A stretch of DNA of 64,000 bases. Origin: Trypanosoma brucei (lineage: Eukaryota). Below, piece by piece: positions 16,289 through 48,425 of the stretch. Each line of letters opens with the position of its first letter. Within the stretch, counting starts at the first letter, position 1. The notes under the pieces were generated by a model. The model was not told where the DNA came from, ran no database searches, and was given only the letters and a program-made list of their open reading frames with translations. Both the position numbers and the translations under genes were made by a program. Location of the stretch: assembly GCA_000002445.1 (NCBI GenBank), contig CP000070.1, positions 960,001 through 1,024,000 of the forward strand. The letters run 5' to 3'.

Positions 16289-17311
16289 TTAGTTTGGGCT
16301 CATGAAGTTGGTGGTTCCGATCATCCGAGTCGTCGGGCTACTGAGAGCCGCGCCGCAAAGGCTGCCGGTGGTTGGGTCCGAAGCACCCAGGGGTGTAAAA
16401 AAGGACGAAACGCTGCCCTGAAGGATTCCGTCTCGCACCGGATTAAGAGGCATGTATGACTGAAAGCAAAGCGGCTCCATAGTCTTGGACGAAGGATGGT
16501 ACTGCTCGGGTTGAGTTGCTGAATTCGACTGTTGTACCCGCGGAATAGTCATCGCCGGAACTGGTTGGGTTGTCATGCTTAAGACGCTTAACTCCATGGG
16601 GCTGCTGCTTCCACAAGTTTTTATGTTGCCAGTAACGATGCCACCTGTGTCACCCTCACTAAGCACTACCGGCGGCTGTATTGTTGAGAGTGCCGGGGCC
16701 CAACTAGCTGGCACCGTTTGCACAAACTGCTGATTGCCTACGGGAGCCGCCATAATGCCGGGCGCTGCTTGTATCATATGCATACGACCTCTGTCCACAA
16801 GTGCGAATGTGGCAGGGTGATGCACTGTCGTTTCTTGCGGCCGCGCCATTGCTGTTAGTACGCTGTTTCTTGAGTCGAATGGGTGTACAATGGGGCAGGG
16901 GACAAGGCTCGAGGTAGTCAAGGAGATTTGCTCCACAGCACCATCGCCGAAGCACGGCCCGCTCACTTTGGGTGGAGCAGAGCCCGGTGGTGCTCTCGGC
17001 CCTGGCTGACGCACGGATGTTGAACCTGCTGCCTGTGAGTACTTCCTGGGCCCAGTGGCTTGCGTGACACGAAGACGCTTATTGTTAATCGAGTATCCAT
17101 TCATCCGCGACATCGCGTTCATCGCGGACTCTACAAACTTGTAACGAACGAATCCGTATCCTTTAGGGTGATTTCCGTTCTCGCGGTCGCATATGATACG
17201 AACAGAAACTAATGGTCCAAAAGGTCTAAACAGCTCCTCAAGGTCTTCCTCCGTCACAGGGGTTGGGATGTAATTAACAATGAGATTGCGCGGATCCTGG
17301 TGCGTTTCCAT
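16289..17311 (-). CDS. RNA-binding protein with a single N-terminal RRM and a Pro/Gln/Ala/Thr-rich C-terminus
   Basis: The RRM shows RNP2 (NLIVNYIP) and RNP1 (KGYGFVRY) within 'RNLIVNYIPTPVTEEDLEELFRPFGPLVSVRIICDRENGNHPKGYGFVRYKFVESAMNAMSRMNGYSINNKRLRV'. ATG verified at 17311. Confidence 0.85.
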   Translation of the reverse strand: METHQDPRNLIVNYIPTPVTEEDLEELFRPFGPLVSVRIICDRENGNHPKGYGFVRYKFVESAMNAMSRMNGYSINNKRLRVTQATGPRKYSQAAGSTSVRQPGPRAPPGSAPPKVSGPCFGDGAVEQISLTTSSLVPCPIVHPFDSRNSVLTAMARPQETTVHHPATFALVDRGRMHMIQAAPGIMAAPVGNQQFVQTVPASWAPALSTIQPPVVLSEGDTGGIVTGNIKTCGSSSPMELSVLSMTTQPVPAMTIPRVQQSNSATQPEQYHPSSKTMEPLCFQSYMPLNPVRDGILQGSVSSFFTPLGASDPTTGSLCGAALSSPTTRMIGTTNFMSPN

Positions 17312-18814: not shown

Positions 18815-21364
18815 CTATGCACTACTCGGTTTAACATCTTTGTTTGTATTATAAATAAGCGGAACATCCTGAACGTGTCCCATTATTTGATCAGGTGGGA
18901 GATTCTGCGGCAGGCGATTTACGAATGGTTGAAGTCTGCTTCCCAACGACCGCGGCCGCATCTTGTCGACAGGACGGTTGCAACCAAGGCAGCGGAAGCC
19001 CCTAAAACCCATCAGAACATCAGCAACACCGCCGCCGTCGTGCTCCTCACTCAAGATGCGCTGCATGTTGACAAGATCTTCCTTGCCTGCCTTGCCATCC
19101 AACATGTCGCGTAGTATATTGAGAGATTTGTCAAGTGTATCAATGAGGCTTGCGTTGGTGGTGTTGAGAACCTGCTCCACCTCACGCATCAACCTCTCCA
19201 GTGCGTTCTCAACGTAATCGCGCTCAGCCTTGTTGGCCACAAGCTGCGCATCCGCCTTGCAGCGGTCAATATGCTCCACATATTTACGCAGAGTGTCTAG
19301 TTCACCGCTAGTGCCGTCCCTGACGGCCTGTAGCATCTGCATTTGCTCCACTAGGTCCTTCTGTACATTTTGAATTTGTTCCTCCTGCTTCTGAGCTGTG
19401 GCAGCGGCTCCCTCGCTGCCACCCTTACTGCTCTCCATTTCCAAAAGCTGTCGCAAACCGCGAACGTCGTCAGCCAAACGCTGAAGCCCGGAGTAATCTG
19501 CCTTGCGATCGTCGAGGTTAAGTACGTTGCCTTCAACACTTACCAAACGGTTTTGCAACTGATTTAGACGTTTGGACAGGTCCTTCACACGCTCCTTTAC
19601 TTCCTCATCCCCCTTAAGGTCGGCTAATACTGGACTTCCATCCCCTGATTCCTGTCCCTGTTTGGACCCCAATTCTTTGTCAGCCTTCATTTGTCCCTCA
19701 TCACTCACACCTCCCCCAGTCTCCGGAGATGACTCCTGAGCGGCGCCCTTGTCTTGTTTTTTCCTCTCTAACGTAGCGCACAGCCTACCGAGCCCCTTGG
19801 CTTCCCCTTGCAACTTACGAATTGCCCCCCACACTTGCTCTAAGTCTCCCTTATCCACTCCTGACTCAAATTCTTTGGACTCTGCTAGCTCCTTTTCAAC
19901 GCCACTCGCGGGCTCCCCTACCGACTGAGGTGGGATGGGGGACGTCTCCTTCGCCTTCGGCTGGGAGTCAGTGGGAGTGATTTTCAGTAGTTTGTCATTC
20001 ATGCGCCGGAACGCCGCCTCAAGGTTATTGAGACGAGCTCTCAAATCCCTCACCTCCGTGTTTGCCGGTCTGTTTTGGGTAGAGGAAGATGATACAACAT
20101 CACCACCAGAACCGGTGACAATGCCAGTGGGACGGGCCTCAACAGCAGCTTCCGGAGCGGTGTCACCTTCCGCAACACCGCCAACGTCGCCATCACCGCT
20201 GTTGCGGAAAGAGCTTTCAGTACCTTCGTGTGGCGTAGTCCTCGCAACATCGTCCGTGGTGTCACCCAAGTATGGCATGCCACCCCCTTCAAGCGCACTA
20301 AGGCGTCTCTTAAGTTCCTCCAGCTCTTCTTCCACTCCCTCCAGGCGCGCAGATTGTACGGCATCAAGACCATCACCAGGCCCGACGGTGCGCATCAGGT
20401 CAACATCCTTCTGCAGTCCCTTCAACTCACTCAATATCTCCGCTACGACGCGATTGAGGCGACCTATACTCTCTTCATCTTGACGTACGCGCACGAAAAG
20501 TGATTCGGGATTGTTGGAATCCTCTGGGGACATCCCCCTCGTGAACGACACACCACTGATTGAGCTCCTTCCCTGACTCATCCGACGGCCTGACACTGGA
20601 CGTGTCACCCTTCCGGAGGGTTGTGCGAGGCTGGACTCACCCTGCTGCCCCAATTGGTCGGGCACCACATCCTCGGCGCGGTTGTCCGGTTGCATAGACT
20701 CCCCAGTTGGATCTTCCTCTTTTGGGGATATCCCATCAAGTTGAAGCTCTTCATTTGCGCGCTGCAGAATAACTTCACCAACCGCCACACCCTCAGTATC
20801 TCCTCCCTTTTGTTTCTCCTTCGTCACGAAATCGCCGTCGGTTCCACTGAGAGGTGATTGTTGCGTCGTGGAAACTTTCCTCCTGGCGTGGTAAAGCTGT
20901 TCAATGGAGGCGTTATTCATCGGTTCGCAGAAATTTCCCACCATCCTCTTTAGGTATTCGATTTCATCCCAAAGTGGCTGTAGGTTATCGGATTGCCCTC
21001 TGTCCTCGTATGGAGGTAACCACTCCGCTGGTGCTTGCTCCAATTTAGAGTCTTCTGCCTCAGTTTCCACCGTCTCCACCGTCGCCCCTTCGGGTTTTTG
21101 TGGTTGCTGCCGGTGGGCTCCCGGTGCCCGGGACAGAATGTTCTGTAACTGCGCCTCACGATCGGCGTCGCGCCTCCGCAACTCGTCCATTTCCATCCGC
21201 AGCAGGGTCAGTTCGTTGTCTTGTCTCTCATTTGCAGTTTCTGACTGCTTCAGCCGCTTAATGATATCCTCAAAAAGCAGCTGCAAGGGTTGAAATGACA
21301 TGGTGTAGCTGATGAGCTTTGACAGGTCAATTTCACAGCCCTCATCGCCAACAACGTACGACAT
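18815..21364 (-). CDS. Large coiled-coil protein (849 aa), hypothetical
   Basis: ATG verified at 21362-21364. There are extended heptad-like Glu/Leu/Arg/Lys-rich segments (ELTLLRMEMDELRRRD..., LEELKRRLSALEGG, LNNLEAAFRRMNDKL). The C-terminal region is Cys-containing (RCLGCNRP). No enzymatic motifs. Confidence 0.7.
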   Translation of the reverse strand: MSYVVGDEGCEIDLSKLISYTMSFQPLQLLFEDIIKRLKQSETANERQDNELTLLRMEMDELRRRDADREAQLQNILSRAPGAHRQQPQKPEGATVETVETEAEDSKLEQAPAEWLPPYEDRGQSDNLQPLWDEIEYLKRMVGNFCEPMNNASIEQLYHARRKVSTTQQSPLSGTDGDFVTKEKQKGGDTEGVAVGEVILQRANEELQLDGISPKEEDPTGESMQPDNRAEDVVPDQLGQQGESSLAQPSGRVTRPVSGRRMSQGRSSISGVSFTRGMSPEDSNNPESLFVRVRQDEESIGRLNRVVAEILSELKGLQKDVDLMRTVGPGDGLDAVQSARLEGVEEELEELKRRLSALEGGGMPYLGDTTDDVARTTPHEGTESSFRNSGDGDVGGVAEGDTAPEAAVEARPTGIVTGSGGDVVSSSSTQNRPANTEVRDLRARLNNLEAAFRRMNDKLLKITPTDSQPKAKETSPIPPQSVGEPASGVEKELAESKEFESGVDKGDLEQVWGAIRKLQGEAKGLGRLCATLERKKQDKGAAQESSPETGGGVSDEGQMKADKELGSKQGQESGDGSPVLADLKGDEEVKERVKDLSKRLNQLQNRLVSVEGNVLNLDDRKADYSGLQRLADDVRGLRQLLEMESSKGGSEGAAATAQKQEEQIQNVQKDLVEQMQMLQAVRDGTSGELDTLRKYVEHIDRCKADAQLVANKAERDYVENALERLMREVEQVLNTTNASLIDTLDKSLNILRDMLDGKAGKEDLVNMQRILSEEHDGGGVADVLMGFRGFRCLGCNRPVDKMRPRSLGSRLQPFVNRLPQNLPPDQIMGHVQDVPLIYNTNKDVKPSSA

Positions 21365-31145: not shown

Positions 31146-32879
31146 TTAGTCCAATAGCACGTCAATAGCCGATGGGCACATCGTAATTCGCAATAGCTCC
31201 TGCGCTGTTGAGCGGTTGACGGAGAACTCCTCGCTGTCCACAGGAACACCCAATGGGCTGACGGGGGCGGTGAATGATATGGCAGACGTCCCAAGTGCAA
31301 TGCAGTCGAGCAGGCACTGCACCACGTGCTCAAACAGTATCTTACCCTCATGCCATGCGCACAGCAGTGATCCACGCTCCCTGCTAGAGATCTCAGTAGC
31401 TTCTTCTGCTGACACTTCAACCGCAGACCCCCCCCTCCCAGCATCGGCTGGTGGGATCAAACCACACACAATAACAGGCTGAACTCCGAGTTTCGTCTCC
31501 ACATCAGCTATGATGGCTTTTGCCTCCATGAGTGATGATTTACGTTGTGGGTCATAACAGATTACCACAGCATGACAACTAGCACAAACAAAGCGGGTTA
31601 ACTCTCTGAACCGTGGGTGGCCGGAGATGTCAAACACTCGCAACTGCGCGCGGGCCGTCAAGCCACCAGTGAGAAAGACGGTTTTGTCAAACTGGTTAAA
31701 AGTCACGGTTGGTGGCGTCACCGCAAACCTCGCACTATTGTCGCCCGGCCGCCGCTGTCGACCCCACTCCCGCATTAATGACGTTTTCCCTACACCACAT
31801 GGGCCAATAAGAGCTATCTTTATTGGGCTTGACAGTAGATCGCGCATCCCCACGGAGAAGCATGACAGTCCCTTACACCGTGTCGCCTCTCGTCTCCGAG
31901 TAAAATCAAGAAATTGAGTAAAATTGTAACGCGCGTTAAGTGAAATTGTCGGTTTGGCAGCACCTGCGGATGTAATGCTGTCAAAATCCGTGCCAAACGT
32001 GAGCTCTCCCAGCTGCTTCTGTGGGAGACGCTGTCGTCGCGTAGAGTTCCGGCTCCCCAAAGTTGTTGAGAGCATGCGTTGCAGTTCCTCCTCGCGCAAG
32101 CATCGCGTCATGTTGTACCGATACCATATGACGTTGTCTCTCGACATAAAATAAAAGTCAGACGAGACTAAAGACACACCTAGAAGCTCCTCCATTGTCA
32201 AGTATGACAAAACTCTAACTAGCAGCGACCACTGCAGCATCTTCAGCTCACCACGACACTTTCGCCGCACCTCACCGTTACGATCACGGCGGGACACAAC
32301 AAGCTGTACTTCATAGTGGCAGGCAAAGCAAACGCGGTACGCCGCCACCGTTGTGGGGTTCATAAACTGGACCTGTCCTTGCTGCTGCTGCTGCGAAATG
32401 TTGTCTTCACCGTTAGCAATGTCAGTTCCAGAGACTCTACCACTGGGTAACGACGTCTTGTCTACGCCGCCACAAGCCTCAATGGGGTTCGACTGAACCT
32501 CCAGAGCTGACTGAACTAACGCATTAACAGTTTCTGAACAGCATGCGGAGCAAAAGACGCGACCACAAACGCGGCAGTGATGCCTTCGGTTAAACATTGA
32601 AAAAGCAACATTACATCCGTGAGCCATACAAGTTGAAACTTGTGTGTCCGGCACCCACCGTCGAAGAGGGCATAAACGAATGCACGAGGGGTCCAAAGTA
32701 GGCTTTGTAAGCCACATGACACCTGACGTCTGTTTGCTAGCGCACTTGCTAAGAAGCGGTGAGCTGACGTTACTTTTTCTGTCGGAACTATTGGCACTAT
32801 AAGGAACGGAAACATTTAAAACCATGATGGGATCACCATTACCCATCTCCCGCTCTTCAGCAAGATCAATATGATCCAT
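31146..32879 (-). CDS. FYVE zinc-finger protein with F-box-like segment and C-terminal Ras/Rab-like P-loop GTPase-like domain
   Basis: FYVE core 'RRHHCRVCGRVFCSACCS'. F-box-like 'LKMLQWSLLVRVLSYLTMEELLGVSLVSSDF'. P-loop 'IALIGPCGVGKTSL' and G3-like 'VFDISGHPRF' are present, but no clear NKxD. ATG verified at 32877-32879. Confidence 0.7.
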   Translation of the reverse strand: MDHIDLAEEREMGNGDPIMVLNVSVPYSANSSDRKSNVSSPLLSKCASKQTSGVMWLTKPTLDPSCIRLCPLRRWVPDTQVSTCMAHGCNVAFSMFNRRHHCRVCGRVFCSACCSETVNALVQSALEVQSNPIEACGGVDKTSLPSGRVSGTDIANGEDNISQQQQQGQVQFMNPTTVAAYRVCFACHYEVQLVVSRRDRNGEVRRKCRGELKMLQWSLLVRVLSYLTMEELLGVSLVSSDFYFMSRDNVIWYRYNMTRCLREEELQRMLSTTLGSRNSTRRQRLPQKQLGELTFGTDFDSITSAGAAKPTISLNARYNFTQFLDFTRRREATRCKGLSCFSVGMRDLLSSPIKIALIGPCGVGKTSLMREWGRQRRPGDNSARFAVTPPTVTFNQFDKTVFLTGGLTARAQLRVFDISGHPRFRELTRFVCASCHAVVICYDPQRKSSLMEAKAIIADVETKLGVQPVIVCGLIPPADAGRGGSAVEVSAEEATEISSRERGSLLCAWHEGKILFEHVVQCLLDCIALGTSAISFTAPVSPLGVPVDSEEFSVNRSTAQELLRITMCPSAIDVLLD

Positions 32880-33302: not shown

Positions 33303-34043
33303 CTACAACTCCCACCACAGGGAACCGCATATCCCAAAGAAGCGGTGCCGCCGCACAACTGCGCCCAGTGGGTCAGTGAAAATCAGGGCGCCGGTTGCGA
33401 AGAAAAGCCAGTCATCAAATTCTAGTCGAACTGGAAGCAGTTTCTCACCACTTCCAGACGTGTCCGAGGTAACACTAGCATCGTGGCGCTTGGTGTTGTT
33501 TCTTAACTCCCAGAGTTTCTCACTCAACTCGTGTCTTTGTGGCAGGCTCTTCCATCCACACGGCGAGGTCCCCTCGGCACCCCTTGAGGCTGAGGCTCCT
33601 GTAGAAGAAAAAAGTTTTCTCCTGTTTGCTATTCTGATTGCGTCCTCTTCATTAGCATCGGAAGCACCATTCCTTCCACTCGCGCCAGAGTTTAGTGGAA
33701 GCCAACGGACCCACACCGATGCAACACTACCATCCCCTGCTGCGGCATTCGCCACCACTGGTTTGTCTCCGTCATCTGCAGCAACCACGGAATGAATTTC
33801 ATTGAAAAAAGCCTCGTGACGACTGCGGTCCACCAGGTAACGGATGAAGTGCCCCTCGTGCGGACGTGTCACATAAAGACCATAACCCGCAAAAGCGGGG
33901 ACAACAAGCCGCCGTAGGTGCCTGAAGAACATCTCCTGCCGCCGTATACGCTGTGCCCTTTCGGAGTATTGTGTGCCGCTTCCCCCGAGAGCGGCGGTGC
34001 CGTAAAACATTCCATTTTTTGCTTCTTCTTCAGTCGCCTTCAT
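33303..34043 (-). CDS. Hypothetical protein, 246 aa
   Basis: ATG verified at 34041-34043. Complexity is coding-like and no recognisable motifs are present. Hydrophobic/aromatic segments near the C-terminus (LFFATGALIF). Confidence 0.5.
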   Translation of the reverse strand: MKATEEEAKNGMFYGTAALGGSGTQYSERAQRIRRQEMFFRHLRRLVVPAFAGYGLYVTRPHEGHFIRYLVDRSRHEAFFNEIHSVVAADDGDKPVVANAAAGDGSVASVWVRWLPLNSGASGRNGASDANEEDAIRIANRRKLFSSTGASASRGAEGTSPCGWKSLPQRHELSEKLWELRNNTKRHDASVTSDTSGSGEKLLPVRLEFDDWLFFATGALIFTDPLGAVVRRHRFFGICGSLWWEL

Positions 34044-38726: not shown

Positions 38727-41700
38727 CTATTTTCCAATATTAATTATCTTTCGCGTTAACTTATAAGGTTCTTCGCCAACGACGAAGCCACTCAACAGTT
38801 TCCTCCTTAAATAACTTAAGCGAATATTCAAAACAGCGCACTCCCTCTCAAAAACATCCAACCTCTGTTGAAGTTCATTCCGTTCAGCCTCCACAGTTTC
38901 CAGATTACGCTCCACAGCAGCTCTCGCATCCTCGGAATTACGAAGTTGCGATTTCAGATCATTGCTTGTAGCGTCCAACCTCTGTTGAAGTTCATTCCGT
39001 TCAGCCTCCACAGTTTCCAGATTACGCTCCACAGCAGCTCTCGCATCTTCGGAATTACGAAGTTGCGATTTCAGATCATTGCTTGTAGCATCCAACCTCT
39101 GTTGAAGTTCATTCCGTTCAGCCTCCACAGTTTCCAGATTACGCTCCACAGCAGCTCTCGCATCCTCGGAATTACGAAGTTGCGATTTCAGATCATTGCT
39201 TGTAGCGTCCAACCTCTGTTGAAGTTCATTCCGTTCAGCCTCCACAGTTTCCAGATTACGCTCCACAGCAGCTCTCGCATCTTCGGAATTACGAAGTTGC
39301 GATTTCAGATCATTGCTTGTAGCGTCCAACCTCTGTTGAAGTTCATTCCGTTCAGCCTCCACAGTTTCCAGATTACGCTCCACAGCAGCTCTCGCATCCT
39401 CGGAATTACGAAGTTGCGATTTCAGATCATTGCTTGTAGCGTCCAACCTCTGTTGAAGTTCATTCCGTTCAGCCTCCACAGTTTCCAGATTACGCTCCAC
39501 AGCAGCTCTCGCATCCTCGGAATTACGAAGTTGCGATTTCAGATCATTGCTTGTAGCGTCCAACCTCTGTTGAAGTTCATTCCGTTCAGCCTCCACAGTT
39601 TCCAGATTACGCTCCACAGCAGCTCTCGCATCTTCGGAATTACGAAGTTGCGATTTCAGATCATTGCTTGTAGCATCCAACCTCTGTTGAAGTTCATTCC
39701 GTTCAGCCTCCACAGTTTCCAGATTACGCTCCACAGCAGCTCTCGCATCCTCGGAATTACGAAGTTGCGATTTCAGATCATTGCTTGTAGCGTCCAACCT
39801 CTGTTGAAGTTCATTCCGTTCAGCCTCCACAGTTTCCAGATTACGCTCCACAGCAGCTCTCGCATCCTCGGAATTACGAAGTTGCGATTTCAGATCATTG
39901 CTTGTAGCATCCAACCTCTGTTGAAGTTCATTCCGTTCAGCCTCCACAGTTTCCAGATTACGCTCCACAGCAGCTCTCGCATCCTCGGAATTACGAAGTT
40001 GCGATTTCAGATCATTGCTTGTAGCGTCCAACCTCTGTTGAAGTTCATTCCGTTCAGCCTCCACAGTTTCCAGATTACGCTCCACAGCAGCTCTCGCATC
40101 CTCGGAATTACGAAGTTGCGATTTCAGATCATTGCTTGTAGCGTCCAACCTCTGTTGAAGTTCATTCCGTTCAGCCTCCACAGTTTCCAGATTACGCTCC
40201 ACAGCAGCTCTCGCATCCTCGGAATTACGAAGTTGCGATTTCAGATCATTGCTTGTAGCGTCCAACCTCTGTTGAAGTTCATTCCGTTCAGCCTCCACAG
40301 TTTCCAGATTACGCTCCACAGCAGCTCTCGCATCCTCGGAATTACGAAGTTGCGATTTCAGATCATTGCTTGTAGCATCCAACCTCTGTTGAAGTTCATT
40401 CCGTTCAGCCTCCACAGTTTCCAGATTACGCTCCACAGCAGCTCTCGCATCCTCGGAATTACGAAGTTGCGATTTCAGATCATTGCTTGTAGCGTCCAAC
40501 CTCTGTTGAAGTTCATTCCGTTCAGCCTCCACAGTTTCCAGATTACGCTCCACAGCAGCTCTCGCATCCTCGGAATTACGAAGTTGCGATTTCAGATCAT
40601 TGCTTGTAGCGTCCAACCTCTGTTGAAGTTCATTCCGTTCAGCCTCCACAGTTTCCAGATTACGCTCCACAGCAGCTCTCGCATCCTCGGAATTACGAAG
40701 TTGCGATTTCAGATCATTGCTTGTAGCGTCCAACCTCTGTTGAAGTTCATTCCGTTCAGCCTCCACAGTTTCCAGATTACGCTCCACAGCAGCTCTCGCA
40801 TCCTCGGAATTACGAAGTTGCGATTTCAGATCATTGCTTGTAGCGTCCAACCTCTGTTGAAGTTCATTCCGTTCAGCCTCCACAGTTTCCAGATTACGCT
40901 CCACAGCAGCTCTCGCATCCTCGGAATTACGAAGTTGCGATTTCAGATCATTGCTTGTAGCATCCAACCTCTGTTGAAGTTCATTCCGTTCAGCCTCCAC
41001 AGTTTCCAGATTACGCTCCACAGCAGCTCTCGCATCCTCGGAATTACGAAGTTGCGATTTCAGATCATTGCTTGTAGCGTCCAACCTCTGTTGAAGTTCA
41101 TTCCGTTCAGCCTCCACAGTTTCCAGATTACGCTCCACAGCAGCTCTCGCATCCTCGGAATTACGAAGTTGCGATTTCAGATCATTGCTTGTAGCGTCCA
41201 ACCTCTGTTGAAGTTCATTCCGTTCAGCCTCCACAGTTTCCAGATTACGCTCCACAGCAGCTCTCGCATCCTCGGAATTACGAAGTTGCGATTTCAGATC
41301 ATTGCTTGTAGCGTCCAACCTCTGTTGAAGTTCATTCCGTTCAGCCTCCACAGTTTCCAGATTACGCTCCACAGCAGCTCTCGCATCTTCGGAATTACGA
41401 AGTTGCGATTTCAGATCATTGCTTGTAGCGTCCAACCTCTGTTGAAGTTCATTCCGTTCAGCCTCCACAGTTTCCAGATTACGCTCCACAGCAGCTCTCG
41501 CATCTTCGGAATTACGAAGTTGCGATTTCAGATCATTGCTTGTAGCATCCAACCTCTGTTGAAGTTCATTCCGTTCAGCCTCCACAGTTTCCAGATTACG
41601 CTCCACAGCAGCTCTCGCATCTTCGGAATTACGAAGTTGCGATTTCAGATCATTGCTCGTAGCATCCAACCTCTGTTGAAGTTCATTCCGTTCAGCCTCC

Positions 41701-44138
41701 ACAGTTTCCAGATTACGCTCCACAGCAGCTCTCGCATCCTCGGAATTACGAAGTTGCGATTTCAGATCATTGCTCGTAGCGTCCAACCTCTGTTGAAGTT
41801 CATCCCGTTCAGCCTCCACAGTTTCCAGATTACGCTCCACAGCAGCTCTCGCATCCTCGGCTTGCCTTGCTTTGTTGGTTATTGCGGCTTCTGATTGTTT
41901 TGTGGTATCAAGTTGTTTTTTTGCTTCTTCTATTTCTTTTTCTAACATTAGAATTTTTTGTTCTAGTTTTTTTGTCATCTGGTGTTGTTCCATCTGAAAT
42001 AATTTATGATTTTTTTCCATTGCGGCTCTTTGGTCGAAATGATGCTGGTTACATTTGGTAAGTTGAGTCTCAACTTCAGTGCCCACCGCCGTTAGTAGCT
42101 CTGCCTGCCAAAGATTGTGCATGCCAATAGTTGTAAGGAGGTGATTTATTGTTTTAATGTGACGATGTTCTGTTTCTTCCAGTTTCAGGTCGAGAAACTG
42201 GGCTATCTCTTCAAGTTCATTTCTTTCAAGTCGGAATACCTCGAGGTCGCTGAGAATTCGTTGTTGTGCCTCACACTCTTCAAGCAGCTTTTGCATGCGG
42301 TGAGAAAGTTCCTCGTTCTGTTGCTGTAATTCTGTATGCTTTTCTGAGGACTGCTGTGAATTACAAAGTGCAGCGCTCAATTGCTCCTGCCTTTCACGAA
42401 GGATGTGTAGTGCTTCCTCTCGTGAATGACGCTCTTGCTCAAGTTCTGACATCACCCTGGACAATTGTTGTTGACTGCTCAACATTTCAGCATCTTTCCT
42501 CTCTCTAATCCCCTCTATCTCTGCTCTGTGTTGCCGCACCTTCTCTAAGAGCTCCTGTTCTCGCTGTGCATACTCATCTTTCAAACGCTGACTCATTTCT
42601 TCATGATATTCAGCGCGGCGTTTCGACTCTTCAACCTGCCGTTCGAGCTCAGTAGCCTTGATCAGGAGTTCCTCACGCTCCACCTCGGTTGCATACAACA
42701 TTTTCTCACGAATTATATTCTTCTCTCGTTCCTTTTCCAGTGCATGAAGGTCAGCAGCACGCTTCTGCGCTTCCGCCTCGAGAAGCACAAGCTTCTCCTC
42801 CAGCTCACGGACGTACGTGGGGTCCTTACCTTTGATGTCTTGCCGCATTTGCTCCATCTGTTCCTCAAGTTCACGAATACGACGCGCGCGGGGGTCCTCA
42901 TTGACTCTGGTCATGTTTACGATATCACGGGCACGTGATGCGTATCGTAGCGTGCTCAGAGTTTCCTCGTAGTTCAGAGCACTCGGGCTCACCGTCGCGA
43001 TCATAAAGGTCTTCGAGTTCCCACCGAGTGAATCTTTCAAAATGTATGTAAGCTTAGACTCCCGATAAGGTGGTGTCGACCATTGTGATGATTTATTCTT
43101 CGCCATATCTGCCAGCATATCGATCACGCGCCCGAGTGTTGTCAATGAGAGATTAATATATCGTGCCTCGTTAAACTGCTGCCCAACAACCTCTGATTGC
43201 GCAACGCGCTCAGATCCAGCAAGGTCCACCAAGTTCATTCGGCTACTCATCCCGGCGGTGGTGATCACTTGCCCAGATGCCGTTTGTGTAGACCGCTCCT
43301 CATGTAGTATCAACATGAAGATAGCATGGCTCCTGCTGCTGCGGTCGTTCATCTTCGTTGAGGCCGTGTGTCGCACACGATTCCCCAACTCGATCAGTTC
43401 CACAACTTCCTCCACAGACGACACCTCTTGCAGTCTCTGTCCTTCGATAAAAACACCCATCGTGGGATGTTCACGCACATCAACGAACACATCCTCCCTC
43501 GATCCCTTCCGCCGCCGAGCCAGGAGGTCAGACACACGCTCGTTATACACTTCAACATACCCAACTGTCACCTTCCACCTTGAGTGGCCCTTTCCTTCGA
43601 TTCGAGCACGCTTCTCGAATATCTCTAGGCAAAGACGCGGTATCACCCCAGCATCCACACCGGACACAGAACCCGGATCTCCTCCCATCATTGTGTACGT
43701 CTTACCACTTCCCGTTTGTCCGTAAGCAAAAAGACATGAGTTGTACCCGTTGAAGGCATGCATCACAAGTGGGCGACCAATCGCTTCATACACTTCCAGC
43801 TGCCCCGCGGGCGGGAGACCACCCTCATCGGTACAACCACAGGAACAAAAAATGTTGTCAAATTGGAATGTTTGCGCCCGTGGGCACTGACTACTTTTTG
43901 AGTGGTGATCAATCAGCGTTATGGTCGAATACGATGTATTGGCTCGGAGTGCGAGTTTGTGCGTTCCCGACATTTCTGAAGTGTTTTGCGGCCGTACTCT
44001 TACAGCTACTTTAATAGACTCATCGCACGCGTTCGTCGTCATTTCGGTTGTTGTTAATGAGTTCCTACTTTCGTCGGTCATCGTTGAGTTATTTTTTCCC
44101 GAGTTTTGTTCCCCTGCCCTCCTTATATTACTTATCAT
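38727..44138 (-). CDS. Kinesin (N-terminal motor domain) with long coiled-coil stalk and ~26 tandem 39-aa repeats (K39-antigen-like kinesin)
   Basis: Motor motifs [25 protein letters not shown] (P-loop), SSRSHAIF (switch I), LVDLAGSER (switch II). This is followed by ~400 aa of coiled coil, then the reiterated repeat NSEDARAAVERNLETVEAERNELQQRLDATSNDLKSQLR. ATG verified at 44136-44138 (an alternative ATG lies at 44081). Confidence 0.9.
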   Translation of the reverse strand: MISNIRRAGEQNSGKNNSTMTDESRNSLTTTEMTTNACDESIKVAVRVRPQNTSEMSGTHKLALRANTSYSTITLIDHHSKSSQCPRAQTFQFDNIFCSCGCTDEGGLPPAGQLEVYEAIGRPLVMHAFNGYNSCLFAYGQTGSGKTYTMMGGDPGSVSGVDAGVIPRLCLEIFEKRARIEGKGHSRWKVTVGYVEVYNERVSDLLARRRKGSREDVFVDVREHPTMGVFIEGQRLQEVSSVEEVVELIELGNRVRHTASTKMNDRSSRSHAIFMLILHEERSTQTASGQVITTAGMSSRMNLVDLAGSERVAQSEVVGQQFNEARYINLSLTTLGRVIDMLADMAKNKSSQWSTPPYRESKLTYILKDSLGGNSKTFMIATVSPSALNYEETLSTLRYASRARDIVNMTRVNEDPRARRIRELEEQMEQMRQDIKGKDPTYVRELEEKLVLLEAEAQKRAADLHALEKEREKNIIREKMLYATEVEREELLIKATELERQVEESKRRAEYHEEMSQRLKDEYAQREQELLEKVRQHRAEIEGIRERKDAEMLSSQQQLSRVMSELEQERHSREEALHILRERQEQLSAALCNSQQSSEKHTELQQQNEELSHRMQKLLEECEAQQRILSDLEVFRLERNELEEIAQFLDLKLEETEHRHIKTINHLLTTIGMHNLWQAELLTAVGTEVETQLTKCNQHHFDQRAAMEKNHKLFQMEQHQMTKKLEQKILMLEKEIEEAKKQLDTTKQSEAAITNKARQAEDARAAVERNLETVEAERDELQQRLDATSNDLKSQLRNSEDARAAVERNLETVEAERNELQQRLDATSNDLKSQLRNSEDARAAVERNLETVEAERNELQQRLDATSNDLKSQLRNSEDARAAVERNLETVEAERNELQQRLDATSNDLKSQLRNSEDARAAVERNLETVEAERNELQQRLDATSNDLKSQLRNSEDARAAVERNLETVEAERNELQQRLDATSNDLKSQLRNSEDARAAVERNLETVEAERNELQQRLDATSNDLKSQLRNSEDARAAVERNLETVEAERNELQQRLDATSNDLKSQLRNSEDARAAVERNLETVEAERNELQQRLDATSNDLKSQLRNSEDARAAVERNLETVEAERNELQQRLDATSNDLKSQLRNSEDARAAVERNLETVEAERNELQQRLDATSNDLKSQLRNSEDARAAVERNLETVEAERNELQQRLDATSNDLKSQLRNSEDARAAVERNLETVEAERNELQQRLDATSNDLKSQLRNSEDARAAVERNLETVEAERNELQQRLDATSNDLKSQLRNSEDARAAVERNLETVEAERNELQQRLDATSNDLKSQLRNSEDARAAVERNLETVEAERNELQQRLDATSNDLKSQLRNSEDARAAVERNLETVEAERNELQQRLDATSNDLKSQLRNSEDARAAVERNLETVEAERNELQQRLDATSNDLKSQLRNSEDARAAVERNLETVEAERNELQQRLDATSNDLKSQLRNSEDARAAVERNLETVEAERNELQQRLDATSNDLKSQLRNSEDARAAVERNLETVEAERNELQQRLDATSNDLKSQLRNSEDARAAVERNLETVEAERNELQQRLDATSNDLKSQLRNSEDARAAVERNLETVEAERNELQQRLDATSNDLKSQLRNSEDARAAVERNLETVEAERNELQQRLDATSNDLKSQLRNSEDARAAVERNLETVEAERNELQQRLDATSNDLKSQLRNSEDARAAVERNLETVEAERNELQQRLDVFERECAVLNIRLSYLRRKLLSGFVVGEEPYKLTRKIINIGK
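38857..41870. repeat. Tandem array of ~25.7 copies of a 117-bp unit (inside the kinesin CDS)
   Basis: Unit 'tccaacctctgttgaagttcattccgttcagcctccacagtttccagattacgctccacagcagctctcgcatcctcggaattacgaagttgcgatttcagatcattgcttgtagcg'. The period was verified at 38857, 38974 and onwards. The only variant sites are C/T in 'gcatc(c/t)tcgg', G/A in 'gtagc(g/a)tcc' and 't(t/c)gtagc'. Confidence 0.95.
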
Positions 44139-44928: not shown

Positions 44929-47913
44929 CTACACTCGCCGAGGCGCAGAAGAACCGTCCACCGCCTCAAGAGGGGTAGCCGCGCCGCCATCCCATAAGAA
45001 CCTCAGAGCTCTCTGCACTGAACACATGGTAAGGATGTAGGAGGCTTTGCGTTGAAGACCGCCCTGCGGCTGAAGTCCAGAAACAAGTGAAAGTGGATCG
45101 TGTGATTCACTGGAGCCACAGTGAACCGGGGTACCAGCCACTGTATCGCGTGGATCACGAAGCTCATAATACCATGCCCGTAGCAAAGTGTAGCGTATAC
45201 GCTCAAATAACTCCTCGATGCTCGACTTCAAATTGAGTTTTGGGGGTTTAATGGAGCAGAGGTTGCAGTTGGTGTAGTGAAGAACGTCGGTTTTCAGTTC
45301 CTCTTCCACAGCCAAAAAAAGTTGCTCCTTGCTCTCTCTGCATGGCAAACCCTCAAGGGCAGCAGGACCGAGAGGTAACCGCAGAAATGCAAAACGACAG
45401 TTCTTTGATATTTCTTCACCTGCATGGTCCGACAACCACTTTGTTGCAACCGCCCACGATATGTTGGCGTTTGAGGATAACCAGTGGAGCAGCATCGGTG
45501 GGAAAACGGCGCGCGCACCACACTTTTTGAGTGACCTACTCAGGTTACCGCTTGCCTTCAACACCCCAGCCTTTGTCACACTTTCACTTGTAGCTGTGTG
45601 GCCCCACTCGGTTCTTGCCTCTTCATGTTGTGTCATCGCCTTCATAGTCCAGAAGAGCCAGACAACGAGGACCGGTTCATCAAAGAGGGTGGATGGAATC
45701 TCTGACAACAGCTTTAGCCACTGAAGCGCATCGTCATGGCACCCACTTCGGGGCGCTTTGTCGCATCCTTTAACTAGTCCCAGACTCGCAACAGCCATGG
45801 TAAACGAGTCAACAGCTCCCTCGATGGCAAGGTACGTGCGGGAGTGTTGATGAAGTGCCTCCGGTACCTCCTCACACTTCCCCCTCAGTGGTGTGGACCC
45901 GCCTCCCCTAATTGCATCGATAGTGAGGCGAAACAAAACAGCAGCATCGCCGGGACGCTGACGCTCCGTGATCATGTAACAGATGACGTCGAAAAGCAAG
46001 ACGGGCATTTCCACCACAAGTTCGGGCACGTCCCCCTCCAGTAGTGGCTCCTTACACATGGATAAAAGTAGATCGACAACTTGTGGGTACCGTGGTTCGC
46101 CTACAAACTCCAGAAGCTCAAAAAGGAGGTGTTTCCTGTCGCCGGAGTACAACTTTTGCGAAAAATACTTTCTCATTACCCCGACTGCCTCTTCAGGTCT
46201 ACACCGCTCGTTTTCCTTGCACAAAGCGGCAACCTCAATGCAAGCCTGGCGTACAGAAAATTCTTCAGCTACCCTATGAAATCCACCCCTGCGAAGGGTA
46301 TCCACCACTACCTCTTGCACATGCAAGCCAAGGGCAAAGTTGCACGGCAGCAACCGCTTTTCTACAACCTCTTCTCTGAAAAGAGAAGGTGTTAGTCGGG
46401 CAGCTAGCGCAGCAACAACCTCGGGACAGAGCAAGGCCGCAAACGATGCGCACGACAAGCAAGCAGCAGAGTCACTGCATCCAGCGGACAAAAGGGATGA
46501 CCAGTCATCCAGCATCTTGAGTACGTCTTCTGACGCTGACCCTTTGGCGATTAATCGAGTAAGGAGCAACAATTTTGACGCAATGTGGGGCGACTGCCGC
46601 CCCGCGAGCGGCCGAATCAAATAGGGGTTGGCCCATGTTTGTGCTAATCGGGCACAAAACGCGAAGTCGGCACCACGTGTGGCCACCTCCACTAGTCGGT
46701 GAAAAACTTCTTCTTCCTCCGCCTGCACATCTCCTCTTCCCTCCACGGCAAAAGCCGTGAGGCCGACAAACTGCAGGACCTCAAGACTGCTCTCCTCCAG
46801 CATCAGTTTCATGCGTAAGGGAGTGAGGTCAGATGCACAGTTCCCATACTCTCCCCCAGAGTTCCCATCCGCCGCCATTGTTAACCACGGAATCCTCTCA
46901 TCTCTCTCCACAGTGTCAGTGCCACCAACAGCGCACTCAGGGGGTAAGGGGTAATCGGACGAAGCTGGGGAAAGCATCCTCGCTAACGCACACCTCGGTT
47001 CAGCTTTCCCCTTGAGCATACTCCAGTACGTCTCCCATTCCGTTAACAGCATGCCCATCAACGGCGCCAACGAAGGGGGTTCGATACACTTCCGGTAGTG
47101 CACATCGTGACCCATCTTCGTCAGCACATATTTGACCTCGCAGCGTGTGTACATTTTGTGAAGCTCGATCAGATATGAGTTTAAAAGATTGTAATGATGC
47201 AGGTTGTGAACAGTCCGCAAAACATCCGGCCATCGACCCCTTTGACCGTTATGTTCAAGGGATAAATTGATGATGACACAAGGGGCCGAAAGAACGGACA
47301 GCAGACCTTTCAAGAACACACATCGGTCCTTATCTTCTTCGTGATCCAAAAAGCGCCCACCACTGGCGTCGGCACTCGTTTTTCCATCTGCGCGTGCTTG
47401 CGATGAGTTCCTCAGCTTCCTCACGGCAAATTGCAGTCTATGATACAGTGGTCTAAGTGTCGACTGGTGTTCGGCACATCGAAGCAAAAACAATGTCGCA
47501 AACGGCAGTTCCAAGTCGGAAACATCATTAGCAATGCAGTGGATCGAATTCGACTCCTTCATTGATGCAGGCTTTGGGGGCGCCCCGTCCAGAACAGCGT
47601 CGCCACGAGGAGGAAGAAAAGGAATGGAACAATGCCTGACTGAGTCGCATGACACAGAATCACACGAGTCTCCGGAAGATACACTACGTAGCTGAAGGTA
47701 GAGAAAAAATATGGCTTCGGCAGCGACAGGGAGACGTCGCTTGTGCAAAAAGTCATAACAAGTAAGTGCGGACCTCCAGCAATGCATTCGCGCGCATATG
47801 AGCTCCGTCGTTGACAATGTCCAATGCGGCCGTGAGGTACCTACTTTGGGCAACCCTCTGCCGTGCAACATCAATTTCAAAATACCATGCAGTGGTGTTT
47901 GGGGAAATGGCAT
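44929..47913 (-). CDS. Large hypothetical protein (~994 aa), Leu-rich/helical, no recognised catalytic motif
   Basis: ~3 kb uninterrupted ORF with non-repetitive, coding-like composition. The track start at 47922 is GTG; the first ATG is at 47913 (verified). Confidence 0.6.
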   Translation of the reverse strand: MPFPQTPLHGILKLMLHGRGLPKVGTSRPHWTLSTTELICARMHCWRSALTCYDFLHKRRLPVAAEAIFFLYLQLRSVSSGDSCDSVSCDSVRHCSIPFLPPRGDAVLDGAPPKPASMKESNSIHCIANDVSDLELPFATLFLLRCAEHQSTLRPLYHRLQFAVRKLRNSSQARADGKTSADASGGRFLDHEEDKDRCVFLKGLLSVLSAPCVIINLSLEHNGQRGRWPDVLRTVHNLHHYNLLNSYLIELHKMYTRCEVKYVLTKMGHDVHYRKCIEPPSLAPLMGMLLTEWETYWSMLKGKAEPRCALARMLSPASSDYPLPPECAVGGTDTVERDERIPWLTMAADGNSGGEYGNCASDLTPLRMKLMLEESSLEVLQFVGLTAFAVEGRGDVQAEEEEVFHRLVEVATRGADFAFCARLAQTWANPYLIRPLAGRQSPHIASKLLLLTRLIAKGSASEDVLKMLDDWSSLLSAGCSDSAACLSCASFAALLCPEVVAALAARLTPSLFREEVVEKRLLPCNFALGLHVQEVVVDTLRRGGFHRVAEEFSVRQACIEVAALCKENERCRPEEAVGVMRKYFSQKLYSGDRKHLLFELLEFVGEPRYPQVVDLLLSMCKEPLLEGDVPELVVEMPVLLFDVICYMITERQRPGDAAVLFRLTIDAIRGGGSTPLRGKCEEVPEALHQHSRTYLAIEGAVDSFTMAVASLGLVKGCDKAPRSGCHDDALQWLKLLSEIPSTLFDEPVLVVWLFWTMKAMTQHEEARTEWGHTATSESVTKAGVLKASGNLSRSLKKCGARAVFPPMLLHWLSSNANISWAVATKWLSDHAGEEISKNCRFAFLRLPLGPAALEGLPCRESKEQLFLAVEEELKTDVLHYTNCNLCSIKPPKLNLKSSIEELFERIRYTLLRAWYYELRDPRDTVAGTPVHCGSSESHDPLSLVSGLQPQGGLQRKASYILTMCSVQRALRFLWDGGAATPLEAVDGSSAPRRV

Positions 47914-48425
47914 AGCAGGCACATACTAAAGCTTTATGCGCAGCAGTGCCCCGGTTCCTCTTCCTATATTACCTCTAATCCCTTCGTGAGGTGGCCACAA
48001 TGTACCTATGAGACGATAATTGGGTAATTACGGAAACGAGCGCTATTAAAGAGGTCAAACAAGCATTTCTTCGTTAGCGCACACGCTCACATGAACAAGA
48101 AAAAGGTTAGCAGTATCGGCGCGCTAGGCCCCTCAGGGTGAAGCAGTCGAGCGAAATGTGGTGAGAAGGGTTGGCTCGGTAAATTGCAATGTCGTGCCTT
48201 TCTGGATGAAAGTGATGCCAGCAGCACCCCCAGCTGTTGGAGTTTCCGTAAAACTAGCTCTCCGCACGGTGGTGCTCTGCAAAACAGAGGCGGGGCATAA
48301 GGCAGCGCATTCCCGAGGGAACAAAACACGCGTACACACGCATAAGTCAAAGCAACCAGACACAGCCCGCTGATGTAACCTCACATCCGAAAGCCGGAAC
48401 CGCTTGCAATATGCCATCCTCGCGG

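What the first reader, a model, noticed from the sequence alone, without database searches (positions are those of the whole stretch)
31146..32879. Unusual domain combination: FYVE finger + F-box-like + degenerate Ras-like GTPase
One 577-aa protein combines a PI3P-binding FYVE zinc finger (RRHHCRVCGRVFCSACCS), an F-box-like Leu-rich helix-loop (LKMLQWSLLVRVLSYLTMEELL...) and a C-terminal P-loop NTPase resembling small GTPases (GPCGVGKTSL; DISGHPRF). The GTPase lacks an obvious NKxD base-specificity motif. This would couple endosomal lipid recognition, SCF-type ubiquitin ligase recruitment and a nucleotide switch in one polypeptide. I do not recognise this architecture from model organisms.
Basis: partly seen in the sequence, partly recalled or inferred. 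Interest (0 to 1): 0.5.

Follow-up and report, generated by a model that had tools for sequence, protein, structure and literature searches.

The report
Known trypanosome protein TbFRP (FYVE–F-box–GTPase)

Summary
Window 31146-32879 (minus strand) encodes a 577-aa protein. FYVE, F-box-like and Ras/Roc domains all score above Pfam's curated cut-offs. The protein is 100% identical to T. brucei TREU927 XP_846002.1/Q57UC6, which is TbFRP (Tb927.7.3790). Adung'a & Field 2013 (PMC3593210) already described this exact FYVE + F-box + GTPase architecture. They reported wortmannin-sensitive (PI3P-dependent) membrane targeting by the FYVE domain, non-essentiality in culture, rapid cleavage that releases the GTPase domain, and density-dependent expression. 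The Leishmania infantum ortholog (Flp3, LINF_140018100) was found in the Skp1 interactome and confirmed by co-IP (PMC11285970). One point goes beyond the papers I could read. In 0 of 40 family members is there an NKxD (G4) motif; most carry a conserved xxCG(L/I/V/F) instead, followed by a hypervariable insertion site. The catalytic Gln position varies, while the P-loop Lys is present in all 26 aligned orthologs and all 14 further homologues, the DxxG Asp/Gly are invariant in the 26 (two distant homologues read ExxG), and the switch-I Thr is nearly invariant. This resembles RhoBTB3, an ATP-binding Rho-like domain fused to a cullin adaptor that acts on endosomes. Verdict: observation confirmed, interpretation supported, already known, low interest.

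The parts
31146..32879 (-). Complete TbFRP / Tb927.7.3790 coding sequence: 577 codons plus the stop codon at 31146-31148
   Evidence: ORF listing. 577/577 identity to TREU927 XP_846002.1/Q57UC6. Computed mass 63.81 kDa against the published 63.8 kDa.
32310..32660 (-). FYVE zinc finger, residues 74-190: WxxD (W75-D78), RRHHCR (98-103), RVC (182-184) and eight Cys
   Evidence: Pfam FYVE 51.9 bits. PDB hits ZFYVE16 and EEA1 at E 1e-10. C84, C89, C102, C105, C110, C113, C184 and C187 are invariant in 26 orthologs. pLDDT is 84-89.
32349..32525 (-). Non-conserved insertion inside the FYVE domain, residues 119-177, between the sixth Cys and the RVC motif
   Evidence: 14% mean pairwise identity, pLDDT below 50. 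It corresponds to the 68-residue insertion reported in PMC3593210.
32109..32255 (-). Basic stretch plus F-box-like motif, residues 209-257. The usual Leu-Pro is replaced by Leu/Met/Phe followed by an invariant Gln216
   Evidence: Pfam F-box-like 27.4 bits against a 24.3 cut-off, covering residues 219-256. The ortholog profile hits only F-box proteins in the PDB, with Skp2 best at E 0.016. 63% mean identity. The model here is weak, pLDDT 41-57.
31965..32096 (-). Variable linker, residues 262-305; the probable location of the proteolytic sites that release the GTPase fragments
   Evidence: 18% mean identity. C-terminal fragments starting at about residues 286-307 would weigh 31.6-29.4 kDa, which matches the RNAi-sensitive triplet in PMC3593210. 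The placement of the cleavage sites is my inference.
31824..31952 (-). Conserved pre-GTPase segment, residues 310-352 (consensus ISLHARYNFTQFLDFARRxEMARCxGLSSF...); two predicted helices, no Pfam match
   Evidence: This is the most conserved region of the protein, 69% mean identity. Helices are predicted at 320-334 and 338-349. No family matched it.
31281..31823 (-). Rab-like P-loop NTPase domain, residues 353-533: G1 GPCGVGKT at 359-366, switch-I T391, G3 DISG at 417-420 followed by H421
   Evidence: Pfam Roc and Ras hits. Rab30, Rab18, Rab43, Ypt6 and Rab6 in PDB sequence searches. Foldseek TM 0.74-0.80 to Rab5a, Rac1 and Rab43. pLDDT 80-94.
31458..31475 (-). VIVCGL, residues 469-474: the family-specific motif that occupies the beta5/G4 position where NKxD should be
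   Evidence: C472 is present in 25 of 26 orthologs and G473 in all 26. The motif lies 52 residues after DxxG in most family members, and no NKxD occurs in any of 40. It is followed by a hypervariable insertion site.
31149..31220 (-). Conserved C-terminal tail, residues 554-577, ending PSAIDVLLD; no CAAX or CC prenylation signal
   Evidence: 50% mean identity and a PSxLDVLLDxK consensus. The lack of a CAAX motif is also noted in PMC3593210.

Best explanation
The ORF is TbFRP (FYVE- and Ras-related protein, Tb927.7.3790) of Trypanosoma brucei, a known multidomain protein reported only from Euglenozoa. Its likely mode of action has four steps. (1) Shown in the literature: the N-terminal FYVE finger places the protein on PI3P-containing endosomal membranes, replacing the lipid anchor that Rab proteins normally carry at the C-terminus. 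(2) Shown for the Leishmania ortholog and inferred for T. brucei: the central F-box-like motif binds Skp1. This links the protein either to a cullin-1 ubiquitin ligase, as a membrane-tethered substrate receptor, or to its own rapid turnover. (3) Inferred from sequence: the C-terminal Rab-derived domain still binds the phosphates and Mg2+ of a nucleotide, because the P-loop Lys, the switch-I Thr and DxxG are conserved. It has lost the guanine-specificity motif NKxD and the catalytic Gln in the whole family. It is therefore probably not a conventional GTP/GDP switch with fast hydrolysis. More likely it is a slowly hydrolysing or base-unspecific (possibly ATP-binding) module that serves as the partner-binding end of the F-box protein. 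(4) Cleavage is shown in the literature; its position is my inference: the protein is cut in the non-conserved linker between the F-box and the conserved pre-GTPase segment, which releases 29-32 kDa GTPase fragments from the membrane anchor.
For: Identity: 577/577 to XP_846002.1/Q57UC6, mass 63.81 kDa against 63.8 kDa, C-terminus VLLD and a 68-residue FYVE insertion as published. FYVE: Pfam 51.9 bits, all diagnostic motifs and eight Cys invariant, and wortmannin-sensitive membrane association in PMC3593210. F-box: Pfam hit above the cut-off in 25 of 26 orthologs, all 17 PDB profile hits are F-box proteins, and Flp3 = A0A6L0WRD5 = P0048 belongs to the FRP ortholog cluster and co-precipitates with LinfSkp1. 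NTPase: Rab-like by sequence and by fold. In the 26 aligned orthologs K365 and D417/G420 are invariant and T391 is present in 24. Residue 421, at the Gln61 position, is H, E, A, D, N or G. NKxD is absent in 0 of 40. Cleavage: the published 31.6, 31.0 and 29.4 kDa fragments map to N-termini at about residues 286-307, inside the 18%-identity linker.
Against: Skp1 binding has not been shown for the T. brucei protein. Tb927.7.3790 is not mentioned in the text or in the held supplementary files of the TbCul-A interactome paper. In Leishmania, Flp3 appeared only in the Skp1 pull-down and not in the Cul1 pull-down. No substrate is known. No nucleotide-binding or hydrolysis data exist in what I could read. 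The AF2 model is unreliable over the F-box, pLDDT 41-57. The canonical Leu-Pro of the F-box is missing. RNAi gave no growth phenotype, so the cellular role is undefined.
Confidence: 0.85

Rival explanations
1. FRP forms a Skp1 complex that works without cullin, as yeast Rcy1-Skp1 does in endosome-to-Golgi recycling. In this case the F-box is a Skp1-docking device for membrane traffic and does not recruit a ubiquitin ligase.
For: Flp3 was recovered with LinfSkp1 but not with LinfCul1. I found no mention of Tb927.7.3790 in the TbCul-A data. Rcy1-Skp1 acts independently of cullin and Cdc34 in endosomal recycling (PMC7185969). The 2013 paper reports the FRP GTPase domain as closest to Rab18 and Ypt6, which are retrograde-traffic GTPases, and Ypt6 and Rab18 are among my top PDB hits.
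Against: Absence from a pull-down of a protein present at roughly one mRNA per cell is weak evidence. Only Flp2 was found in both the Skp1 and Cul1 pull-downs, and Flp1, which was found with Skp1 only, still formed an active CRL1 complex. FRP has no similarity to Rcy1 outside the F-box.
Confidence: 0.25
2. The F-box serves mainly to make FRP itself short-lived through auto-ubiquitination, so that its level tracks cell density. There is no separate substrate. This is the suggestion made by Adung'a & Field.
For: Full-length protein is hardly detectable, turnover is fast, overexpression is toxic, and abundance depends on cell density. F-box proteins and RhoBTB proteins are commonly substrates of their own ligase (PMC4931677).
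Against: The observed processing is endoproteolytic and releases stable 29-32 kDa fragments, which is not what proteasomal degradation produces. The F-box and the pre-GTPase segment are the most conserved parts of the protein, at 63% and 69%, which is more constraint than a degradation tag would need.
Confidence: 0.25
3. The Rab-like domain is a nucleotide-free pseudoGTPase that acts only as a structural scaffold.
For: NKxD is absent in all 40 family members, the catalytic Gln is absent, and long insertions are tolerated at the G4 loop.
Against: The P-loop Lys is present in all 26 aligned orthologs and all 14 further homologues. The DxxG Asp and Gly are invariant in the 26, though two distant homologues read ExxG, and the switch-I Thr is present in 24 of 26. 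Conservation of exactly the phosphate and Mg2+ ligands is hard to explain without nucleotide binding.
Confidence: 0.12
4. The ORF is an assembly or annotation artefact that fuses a FYVE gene to a separate small-GTPase gene.
For: Antibody against the GTPase domain detects only fragments of about 30 kDa.
Against: The reading frame is uninterrupted in the window. The same architecture is present in more than 40 proteins from many independently assembled genomes. The authors re-sequenced the gene and expressed the full-length protein.
Confidence: 0.01

Closest known systems
TbFRP / Tb927.7.3790 (Field 2005, as cited; Adung'a & Field 2013, PMC3593210) and its Leishmania infantum ortholog Flp3 / LINF_140018100 (PMC11285970)
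   Same: It is the same protein: 100% identity, the same mass, the same C-terminus and the same FYVE insertion. The published properties are the FYVE + F-box + GTPase architecture, PI3P-dependent membrane binding, cleavage, density-dependent expression, and Skp1 binding by the ortholog.
   Different: Nothing differs in the sequence. The analysis here adds that the G4 motif and the catalytic Gln are missing in the whole family, that a conserved xxCG motif replaces G4, and that the pre-GTPase segment and the F-box are the most conserved regions. The words NKxD, guanine, hydrolysis and P-loop do not occur in the 2013 paper.
RhoBTB proteins, especially RhoBTB3 (PMC4931677)
   Same: A divergent small-GTPase domain is fused to a cullin-RING adaptor domain. 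According to PMC4931677, RhoBTB3 binds and hydrolyses ATP because of G4 and G5 replacements, and it acts in endosome-to-Golgi transport. RhoBTB proteins are also substrates of their own ligase.
   Different: RhoBTB uses BTB domains and cullin-3, is derived from Rho, has its GTPase domain at the N-terminus, and has no lipid-binding domain. FRP uses an F-box with Skp1, is derived from Rab, has its GTPase domain at the C-terminus, and carries a FYVE finger. The two are not homologous as fusions, so this would be convergence.
Yeast Rcy1-Skp1 complex
   Same: It is an F-box protein that binds Skp1 and acts in endosomal recycling together with Rab GTPases (Ypt31/32).
   Different: Rcy1 has no FYVE domain and no GTPase domain. 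It binds a separate Rab as that Rab's effector. Its action is independent of cullin, which has not been tested for FRP.
FYVE-containing Rab5 effectors (EEA1, Rabenosyn-5)
   Same: They use a FYVE-PI3P interaction together with a Rab interaction to act on early endosomes. EEA1 is among the best FYVE hits, and Rabenosyn-5 has a comparable insertion in its FYVE domain.
   Different: These proteins bind a Rab in trans. FRP carries the Rab-like domain in the same chain and has an F-box. No EEA1 ortholog exists in trypanosomes according to PMC3593210.

Membership tests
TbFRP (Tb927.7.3790) orthologous group | Sequence identity to the reference protein | tested here: met
   577/577 identical to XP_846002.1 / Q57UC6_TRYB2.
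TbFRP (Tb927.7.3790) orthologous group | Published descriptors: 63.8 kDa, C-terminal VLLD, 68-residue FYVE insertion, domain order FYVE then F-box then GTPase | tested here: met
   63.81 kDa. The sequence ends in VLLD. C113 to R182 spans 68 residues. Domain order from Pfam agrees with PMC3593210.
FYVE zinc finger (PF01363) | WxxD, R(R/K)HHCR and RVC motifs plus eight zinc-binding Cys | tested here: met
   WVPD at 75-78, RRHHCR at 98-103, RVC at 182-184; all eight Cys are invariant in 26 orthologs. Pfam 51.9 bits against a 27.8 cut-off.
FYVE zinc finger (PF01363) | PI3P binding | not testable with these tools
   Published: the FYVE fragment is membrane-bound and is delocalised by wortmannin (PMC3593210).
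F-box (PF12937 / PF00646) | Profile match above the curated cut-off | tested here: met
   F-box-like 27.4 bits against 24.3. 25 of 26 orthologs hit F-box-like and 14 of 26 hit F-box. The PDB profile search returned only F-box proteins.
F-box (PF12937 / PF00646) | N-terminal Leu-Pro of the motif | tested here: not met
   The Pfam match starts at profile position 8. FRP has L/M/F followed by an invariant Gln216. The KDM2A F-box aligns with a Gln at the same place, so a Gln there also occurs in a protein deposited in the PDB as an F-box.
F-box (PF12937 / PF00646) | Three-helix F-box fold | tested here: inconclusive
   Helices are predicted at 211-224, 229-238 and 240-274, but pLDDT is only 41-57.
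F-box (PF12937 / PF00646) | Binding to Skp1 | not testable with these tools
   Published for the L. infantum ortholog Flp3, by interactome and co-IP (PMC11285970). Orthology was checked. It has not been shown for T. brucei.
SCF / CRL1 substrate receptor | Assembly with cullin-1 and Rbx1, and a defined substrate | not testable with these tools
   No published support was found. Flp3 was recovered with Skp1 only, and Tb927.7.3790 is absent from the TbCul-A paper text and its held supplements.
Ras superfamily / Rab-like small GTPase | G1 P-loop GxxxxGK[ST] | tested here: met
   GPCGVGKT at 359-366. G359 and K365 are invariant, and position 366 is T or S in all 26.
Ras superfamily / Rab-like small GTPase | G2 switch-I Thr and G3 DxxG | tested here: met
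   T391 is present in 24 of 26 orthologs; D417 and G420 are present in all 26. Two distant homologues, P0067 and P0069, have ExxG.
Ras superfamily / Rab-like small GTPase | Catalytic Gln after DxxG (Ras Gln61) | tested here: not met
   H421 aligns with the Gln of Rab30, Rab18 and Rab43. Across orthologs this position is H, E, A, D, N or G.
Ras superfamily / Rab-like small GTPase | G4 [NT]KxD guanine-specificity motif | tested here: not met
   It is absent in all 40 family members, while the H-Ras control was detected. It is replaced by a conserved xxCG(L/I/V/F).
Ras superfamily / Rab-like small GTPase | G5 SAK-type motif | tested here: inconclusive
   No SAK is visible at the aligned position (ERGSLLCAW; S504 is nearly invariant). 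G5 is weakly defined in general, from my own knowledge.
Ras superfamily / Rab-like small GTPase | Small-GTPase fold | tested here: met
   Foldseek TM (target-normalised) 0.80 to L. donovani Rab5a, 0.75 to Rac1 and 0.74-0.77 to Rab43. pLDDT is 80-94.
Ras superfamily / Rab-like small GTPase | C-terminal prenylation signal (CAAX, CC or CXC) | tested here: not met
   The protein ends in IDVLLD, and the family consensus tail is PSxLDVLLDxK.
RhoBTB | BTB domains that bind cullin-3 | tested here: not met
   There is no BTB hit in Pfam even at E up to 10. The resemblance is functional only.

The most novel reading that the evidence does not exclude
The Rab-derived domain of FRP may have become an ATP-binding or base-unspecific nucleotide switch, as the Rho-derived domain of RhoBTB3 did. 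It could then serve as the substrate- or partner-recognition module of a PI3P-anchored Skp1/cullin-1 ligase. Euglenozoa would in that case have evolved their own 'small NTPase + cullin adaptor' device for endosomal traffic, independently of the animal RhoBTB proteins.
Probability: 0.2. Interest if true: 0.5.

Novelty: already known. Interest (0 to 1): 0.18.

Why it matters
The gene itself is known, so the finding does not open a new topic. FRP does remain one of the few proteins that join a phosphoinositide reader, a ubiquitin-ligase adaptor motif and a nucleotide-binding domain in one chain, and its cellular role is still undefined. The F-box and an unannotated pre-GTPase segment are more conserved than the GTPase core. 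The guanine-specificity motif and the catalytic Gln are missing in the entire family, while the phosphate ligands are kept. Together these facts turn the open question into a testable one: does the domain bind ATP or GTP, and is it the substrate-binding end of an endosomal SCF ligase? If so, FRP would be a convergent counterpart of RhoBTB3 in an early-branching eukaryotic lineage that includes major parasites.

Tried and rejected
(1) AlphaFold2 on 26 orthologs, to confirm the F-box fold. The F-box region came out with low confidence (pLDDT 41-57), so the fold is undecided. (2) The top Foldseek hits were Slp2a-Rab27a fusion constructs, which might have suggested that the pre-GTPase helix packs like a Rab effector. 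Their rmsd of 12-17 A makes this uninterpretable, so I dropped it. (3) I searched the T. brucei cullin interactome paper and its seven held supplementary files for Tb927.7.3790 and found nothing. That is absence of evidence only. (4) The CDC34/SCF paper (PMC5507466) does not mention the protein. (5) Field 2005 (PMID 16112905), which first named FRP, is not held, so I cannot exclude that the motif degeneracy was noted there. (6) A search for 'pseudoGTPase' together with trypanosomes found no paper whose title or abstract concerns FRP; I did not read those papers. (7) Genomic context as a functional clue: the neighbours (phosphatidylserine synthase, NAD(P)HX repair enzyme, poly(A) polymerase, a CSD protein, a WD40 protein, a kinesin, a kinase) are unrelated. 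Trypanosome polycistronic units are not functional operons (established knowledge), so I rejected this line. (8) The Rfam and tRNA scans of the window found nothing. (9) I compared the conserved C-terminal LDVLLD with the acidic dileucine sorting motifs DxxLL and [DE]xxxL[LI] by eye. The spacing does not fit either, so I make no claim.
Full report
OBSERVATION. The window has an uninterrupted ATG-to-stop ORF of 577 codons at 31146-32879 on the minus strand. A Pfam scan places three domains above their curated gathering scores: FYVE 51.9 bits (cut-off 27.8), Roc 42.6 (27) and Ras 39.8 (21.6), and F-box-like 27.4 (24.3). The Ras profile match ends at position 112 of 162, and the alignments to Rab30, Rab18 and Rab43 end just before beta5.

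IDENTITY. A homology search returned a 100% identical Trypanosoma brucei protein, plus orthologs with the same Pfam pattern in Trypanosoma, Leishmania, Leptomonas, Phytomonas, Angomonas, Trypanoplasma and unnamed assemblies. The protein is 577/577 identical to TREU927 XP_846002.1 / Q57UC6. [quoted passage not shown] That paper gives the gene as Tb927.7.3790, the mass as 63.8 kDa, the C-terminus as VLLD and the FYVE insertion as 68 residues. I compute 63.81 kDa, and I find the same C-terminus and a 68-residue gap between C113 and R182. The window ORF is TbFRP. The flanking ORFs all lie on the same strand and are unrelated housekeeping genes (phosphatidylserine synthase, NAD(P)HX dehydratase/epimerase, poly(A) polymerase, a cold-shock-domain protein, a WD40 protein, a kinesin and a protein kinase). 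This is the normal layout of a trypanosome polycistronic unit and says nothing about function.

WHAT IS ALREADY PUBLISHED. The 2013 paper says the FYVE + F-box + GTPase architecture was first noted in 2005 and is restricted to Euglenozoa. It shows that the FYVE fragment is membrane-bound and is delocalised by the PI3-kinase inhibitor wortmannin. It shows that RNAi gives no growth defect, and that an antibody to the GTPase domain detects an RNAi-sensitive triplet of 31.6, 31.0 and 29.4 kDa, interpreted as rapid cleavage that releases the GTPase domain. It also reports that overexpression is toxic and that abundance rises with cell density. [quoted passage not shown] I checked that A0A6L0WRD5 (P0048) is in the same 90% cluster as the FRP ortholog P0014. 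The GTP-binding assay is not; the words guanine, hydrolysis, P-loop, NKxD and Skp1 do not occur in the 2013 paper.

WHAT THE ANALYSIS HERE ADDS. I aligned 26 orthologs and ran an exhaustive profile search, which found 40 proteins at E <= 1e-30. I then fetched more distant homologs with the same three-part layout. One of them is from Papus ankaliazontas, which as far as I recall is an early-branching kinetoplastid.
(a) GTPase motifs. In the 26 aligned orthologs the P-loop Gly359 and Lys365 and the G3 Asp417 and Gly420 are invariant, and the switch-I Thr391 is present in 24. The residue aligned with the catalytic Gln of Rabs is H, E, A, D, N or G. No [NT]KxD occurs at the G4 position in any of 40 family members, whereas the same scan finds NKCD in H-Ras. 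Instead, a conserved (V/I/A)x(V/I/A)CG(L/I/V/F) lies 52 residues after DxxG in most members. It is immediately followed by a hypervariable site that holds 12 residues in T. brucei and more than 100 in Leishmania and Phytomonas. Two distant members have ExxG instead of DxxG, one has INKTN and one has VGTNCSSPD.
(b) Fold. The AF2 model is confident for the FYVE core (pLDDT 84-89) and for residues 350-535 (80-94). Foldseek matches complete small GTPases, with TM 0.80 to L. donovani Rab5a and 0.74-0.77 to Rac1 and Rab43. The fold is intact even though the base-binding motif is gone.
(c) F-box. The ortholog profile of residues 203-262 hits 17 PDB sequences at E < 10. The listed names are Skp2, KDM2A, FBXW7, FBXW8, beta-TrCP, FBXO3 and FBXL5, plus ECT2L, which I recall is also an F-box protein. 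Each E-value is marginal (0.016 and above), but the specificity is complete. The usual Leu-Pro is replaced by Leu/Met/Phe followed by an invariant Gln, and KDM2A has a Gln at the aligned position. The AF2 model is unreliable over this region (pLDDT 41-57).
(d) Conservation profile. The F-box (63% mean pairwise identity) and an unannotated segment just before the GTPase domain (residues 310-352, 69%) are more conserved than the GTPase core (about 45%) or the FYVE domain (about 55%). The linker at 262-305 is only 18% identical.
(e) Cleavage. C-terminal fragments of 31.6-29.4 kDa would begin at about residues 286-307, inside that linker.

MECHANISM. Published evidence shows PI3P-dependent endosomal targeting by the FYVE finger, endoproteolytic release of the GTPase part, and Skp1 binding by the Leishmania ortholog. 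I infer the rest. The F-box docks Skp1 in T. brucei as well. The Rab-derived domain still binds the phosphates and Mg2+ of a nucleotide but has lost guanine specificity and fast hydrolysis, so it behaves as a slow or base-unspecific switch and as the partner-binding end of the F-box protein. Cleavage in the linker then uncouples that domain from the membrane anchor and from Skp1. The nearest functional precedent is RhoBTB3. According to PMC4931677, its divergent GTPase domain binds and hydrolyses ATP because of G4 and G5 replacements, it is fused to cullin-3-binding BTB domains, and it acts in endosome-to-Golgi transport. FRP is not a member of that family: it has no BTB domain, it is derived from Rab, and its domain order is reversed.

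RIVALS. (i) A cullin-independent Skp1 complex like yeast Rcy1-Skp1. Flp3 was found with Skp1 but not with Cul1, and I found no trace of TbFRP in the TbCul-A paper. Given the very low abundance of the protein, this is weak evidence either way. (ii) The F-box serves only FRP's own turnover, as the authors suggested. The strong conservation of the F-box and of the adjacent segment, and the fact that processing is endoproteolytic, argue for something more. (iii) A nucleotide-free pseudoGTPase. This is unlikely, given the strong conservation of the phosphate and Mg2+ ligands. (iv) A fusion artefact. This is excluded by the continuous frame, by more than 40 independent orthologs, and by the authors' re-sequencing.

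NOVELTY AND SCORE. It is 'already known'. The residual new point is the family-wide loss of G4 and of the catalytic Gln, with a conserved replacement motif and an insertion hot-spot at the base-binding loop. This is a modest refinement that makes a nucleotide-specificity experiment worthwhile. I could not read Field 2005 or Field & O'Reilly 2008, so even this point may have been noted before. Interest 0.18.

Noticed in passing
window 38857-41860 (inside ORF 38727-44138, minus strand): A 117-bp tandem repeat of 25.7 copies at 99% identity lies inside an 1803-aa kinesin ORF (Pfam Kinesin motor, 334 bits), so it encodes a near-perfect 39-aa repeat in the coiled-coil stalk. The 1008-aa plus-strand ORF at 38868-41894 is probably an antisense artefact of this repeat.
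   Followed up: partly
window ~7800-16300: An AT-rich stretch (GC 0.31-0.35, against about 0.50 for the coding parts) of about 8.5 kb has no ORF longer than 200 aa, no tRNA gene and no Rfam match. Its nature (long UTRs, intergenic sequence or a decayed element) was not determined.
   Followed up: no
window ~53650-59310: Every long ORF up to 53651 is on the minus strand, and the long ORFs from 59311 onward are on the plus strand. This looks like a divergent strand-switch region between two polycistronic units, the kind of place where transcription starts in trypanosomes.
   Followed up: no
window 31824-31952 (FRP residues 310-352): The most conserved part of FRP (69% mean identity over 25 orthologs) is an unannotated two-helix segment just upstream of the GTPase domain (consensus ISLHARYNFTQFLDFARRxEMARCxGLSSF). 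It matches no Pfam family. Its role is unknown.
   Followed up: partly
window 31149-31220 (FRP residues 554-577): A conserved C-terminal tail, PSxLDVLLDxK, is present from T. brucei to the most distant homologs, in the place where a Rab would carry its prenylation signal. It does not fit the DxxLL or [DE]xxxL[LI] sorting motifs by spacing.
   Followed up: partly
window 33303-34043, 44929-47922 and 18815-21364 (all minus strand): Three long ORFs (246, 997 and 849 aa) in the same polycistronic unit have no Pfam match at E <= 0.001.
   Followed up: no
P0010 (T. conorhini ortholog), alignment A1 columns ~880-1215: This ortholog diverges completely from all the others from the beta5 region to its C-terminus, which reads Arg/Gly/Ala-rich. 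The most likely cause is a frameshift in that assembly or gene model rather than real divergence.
   Followed up: no
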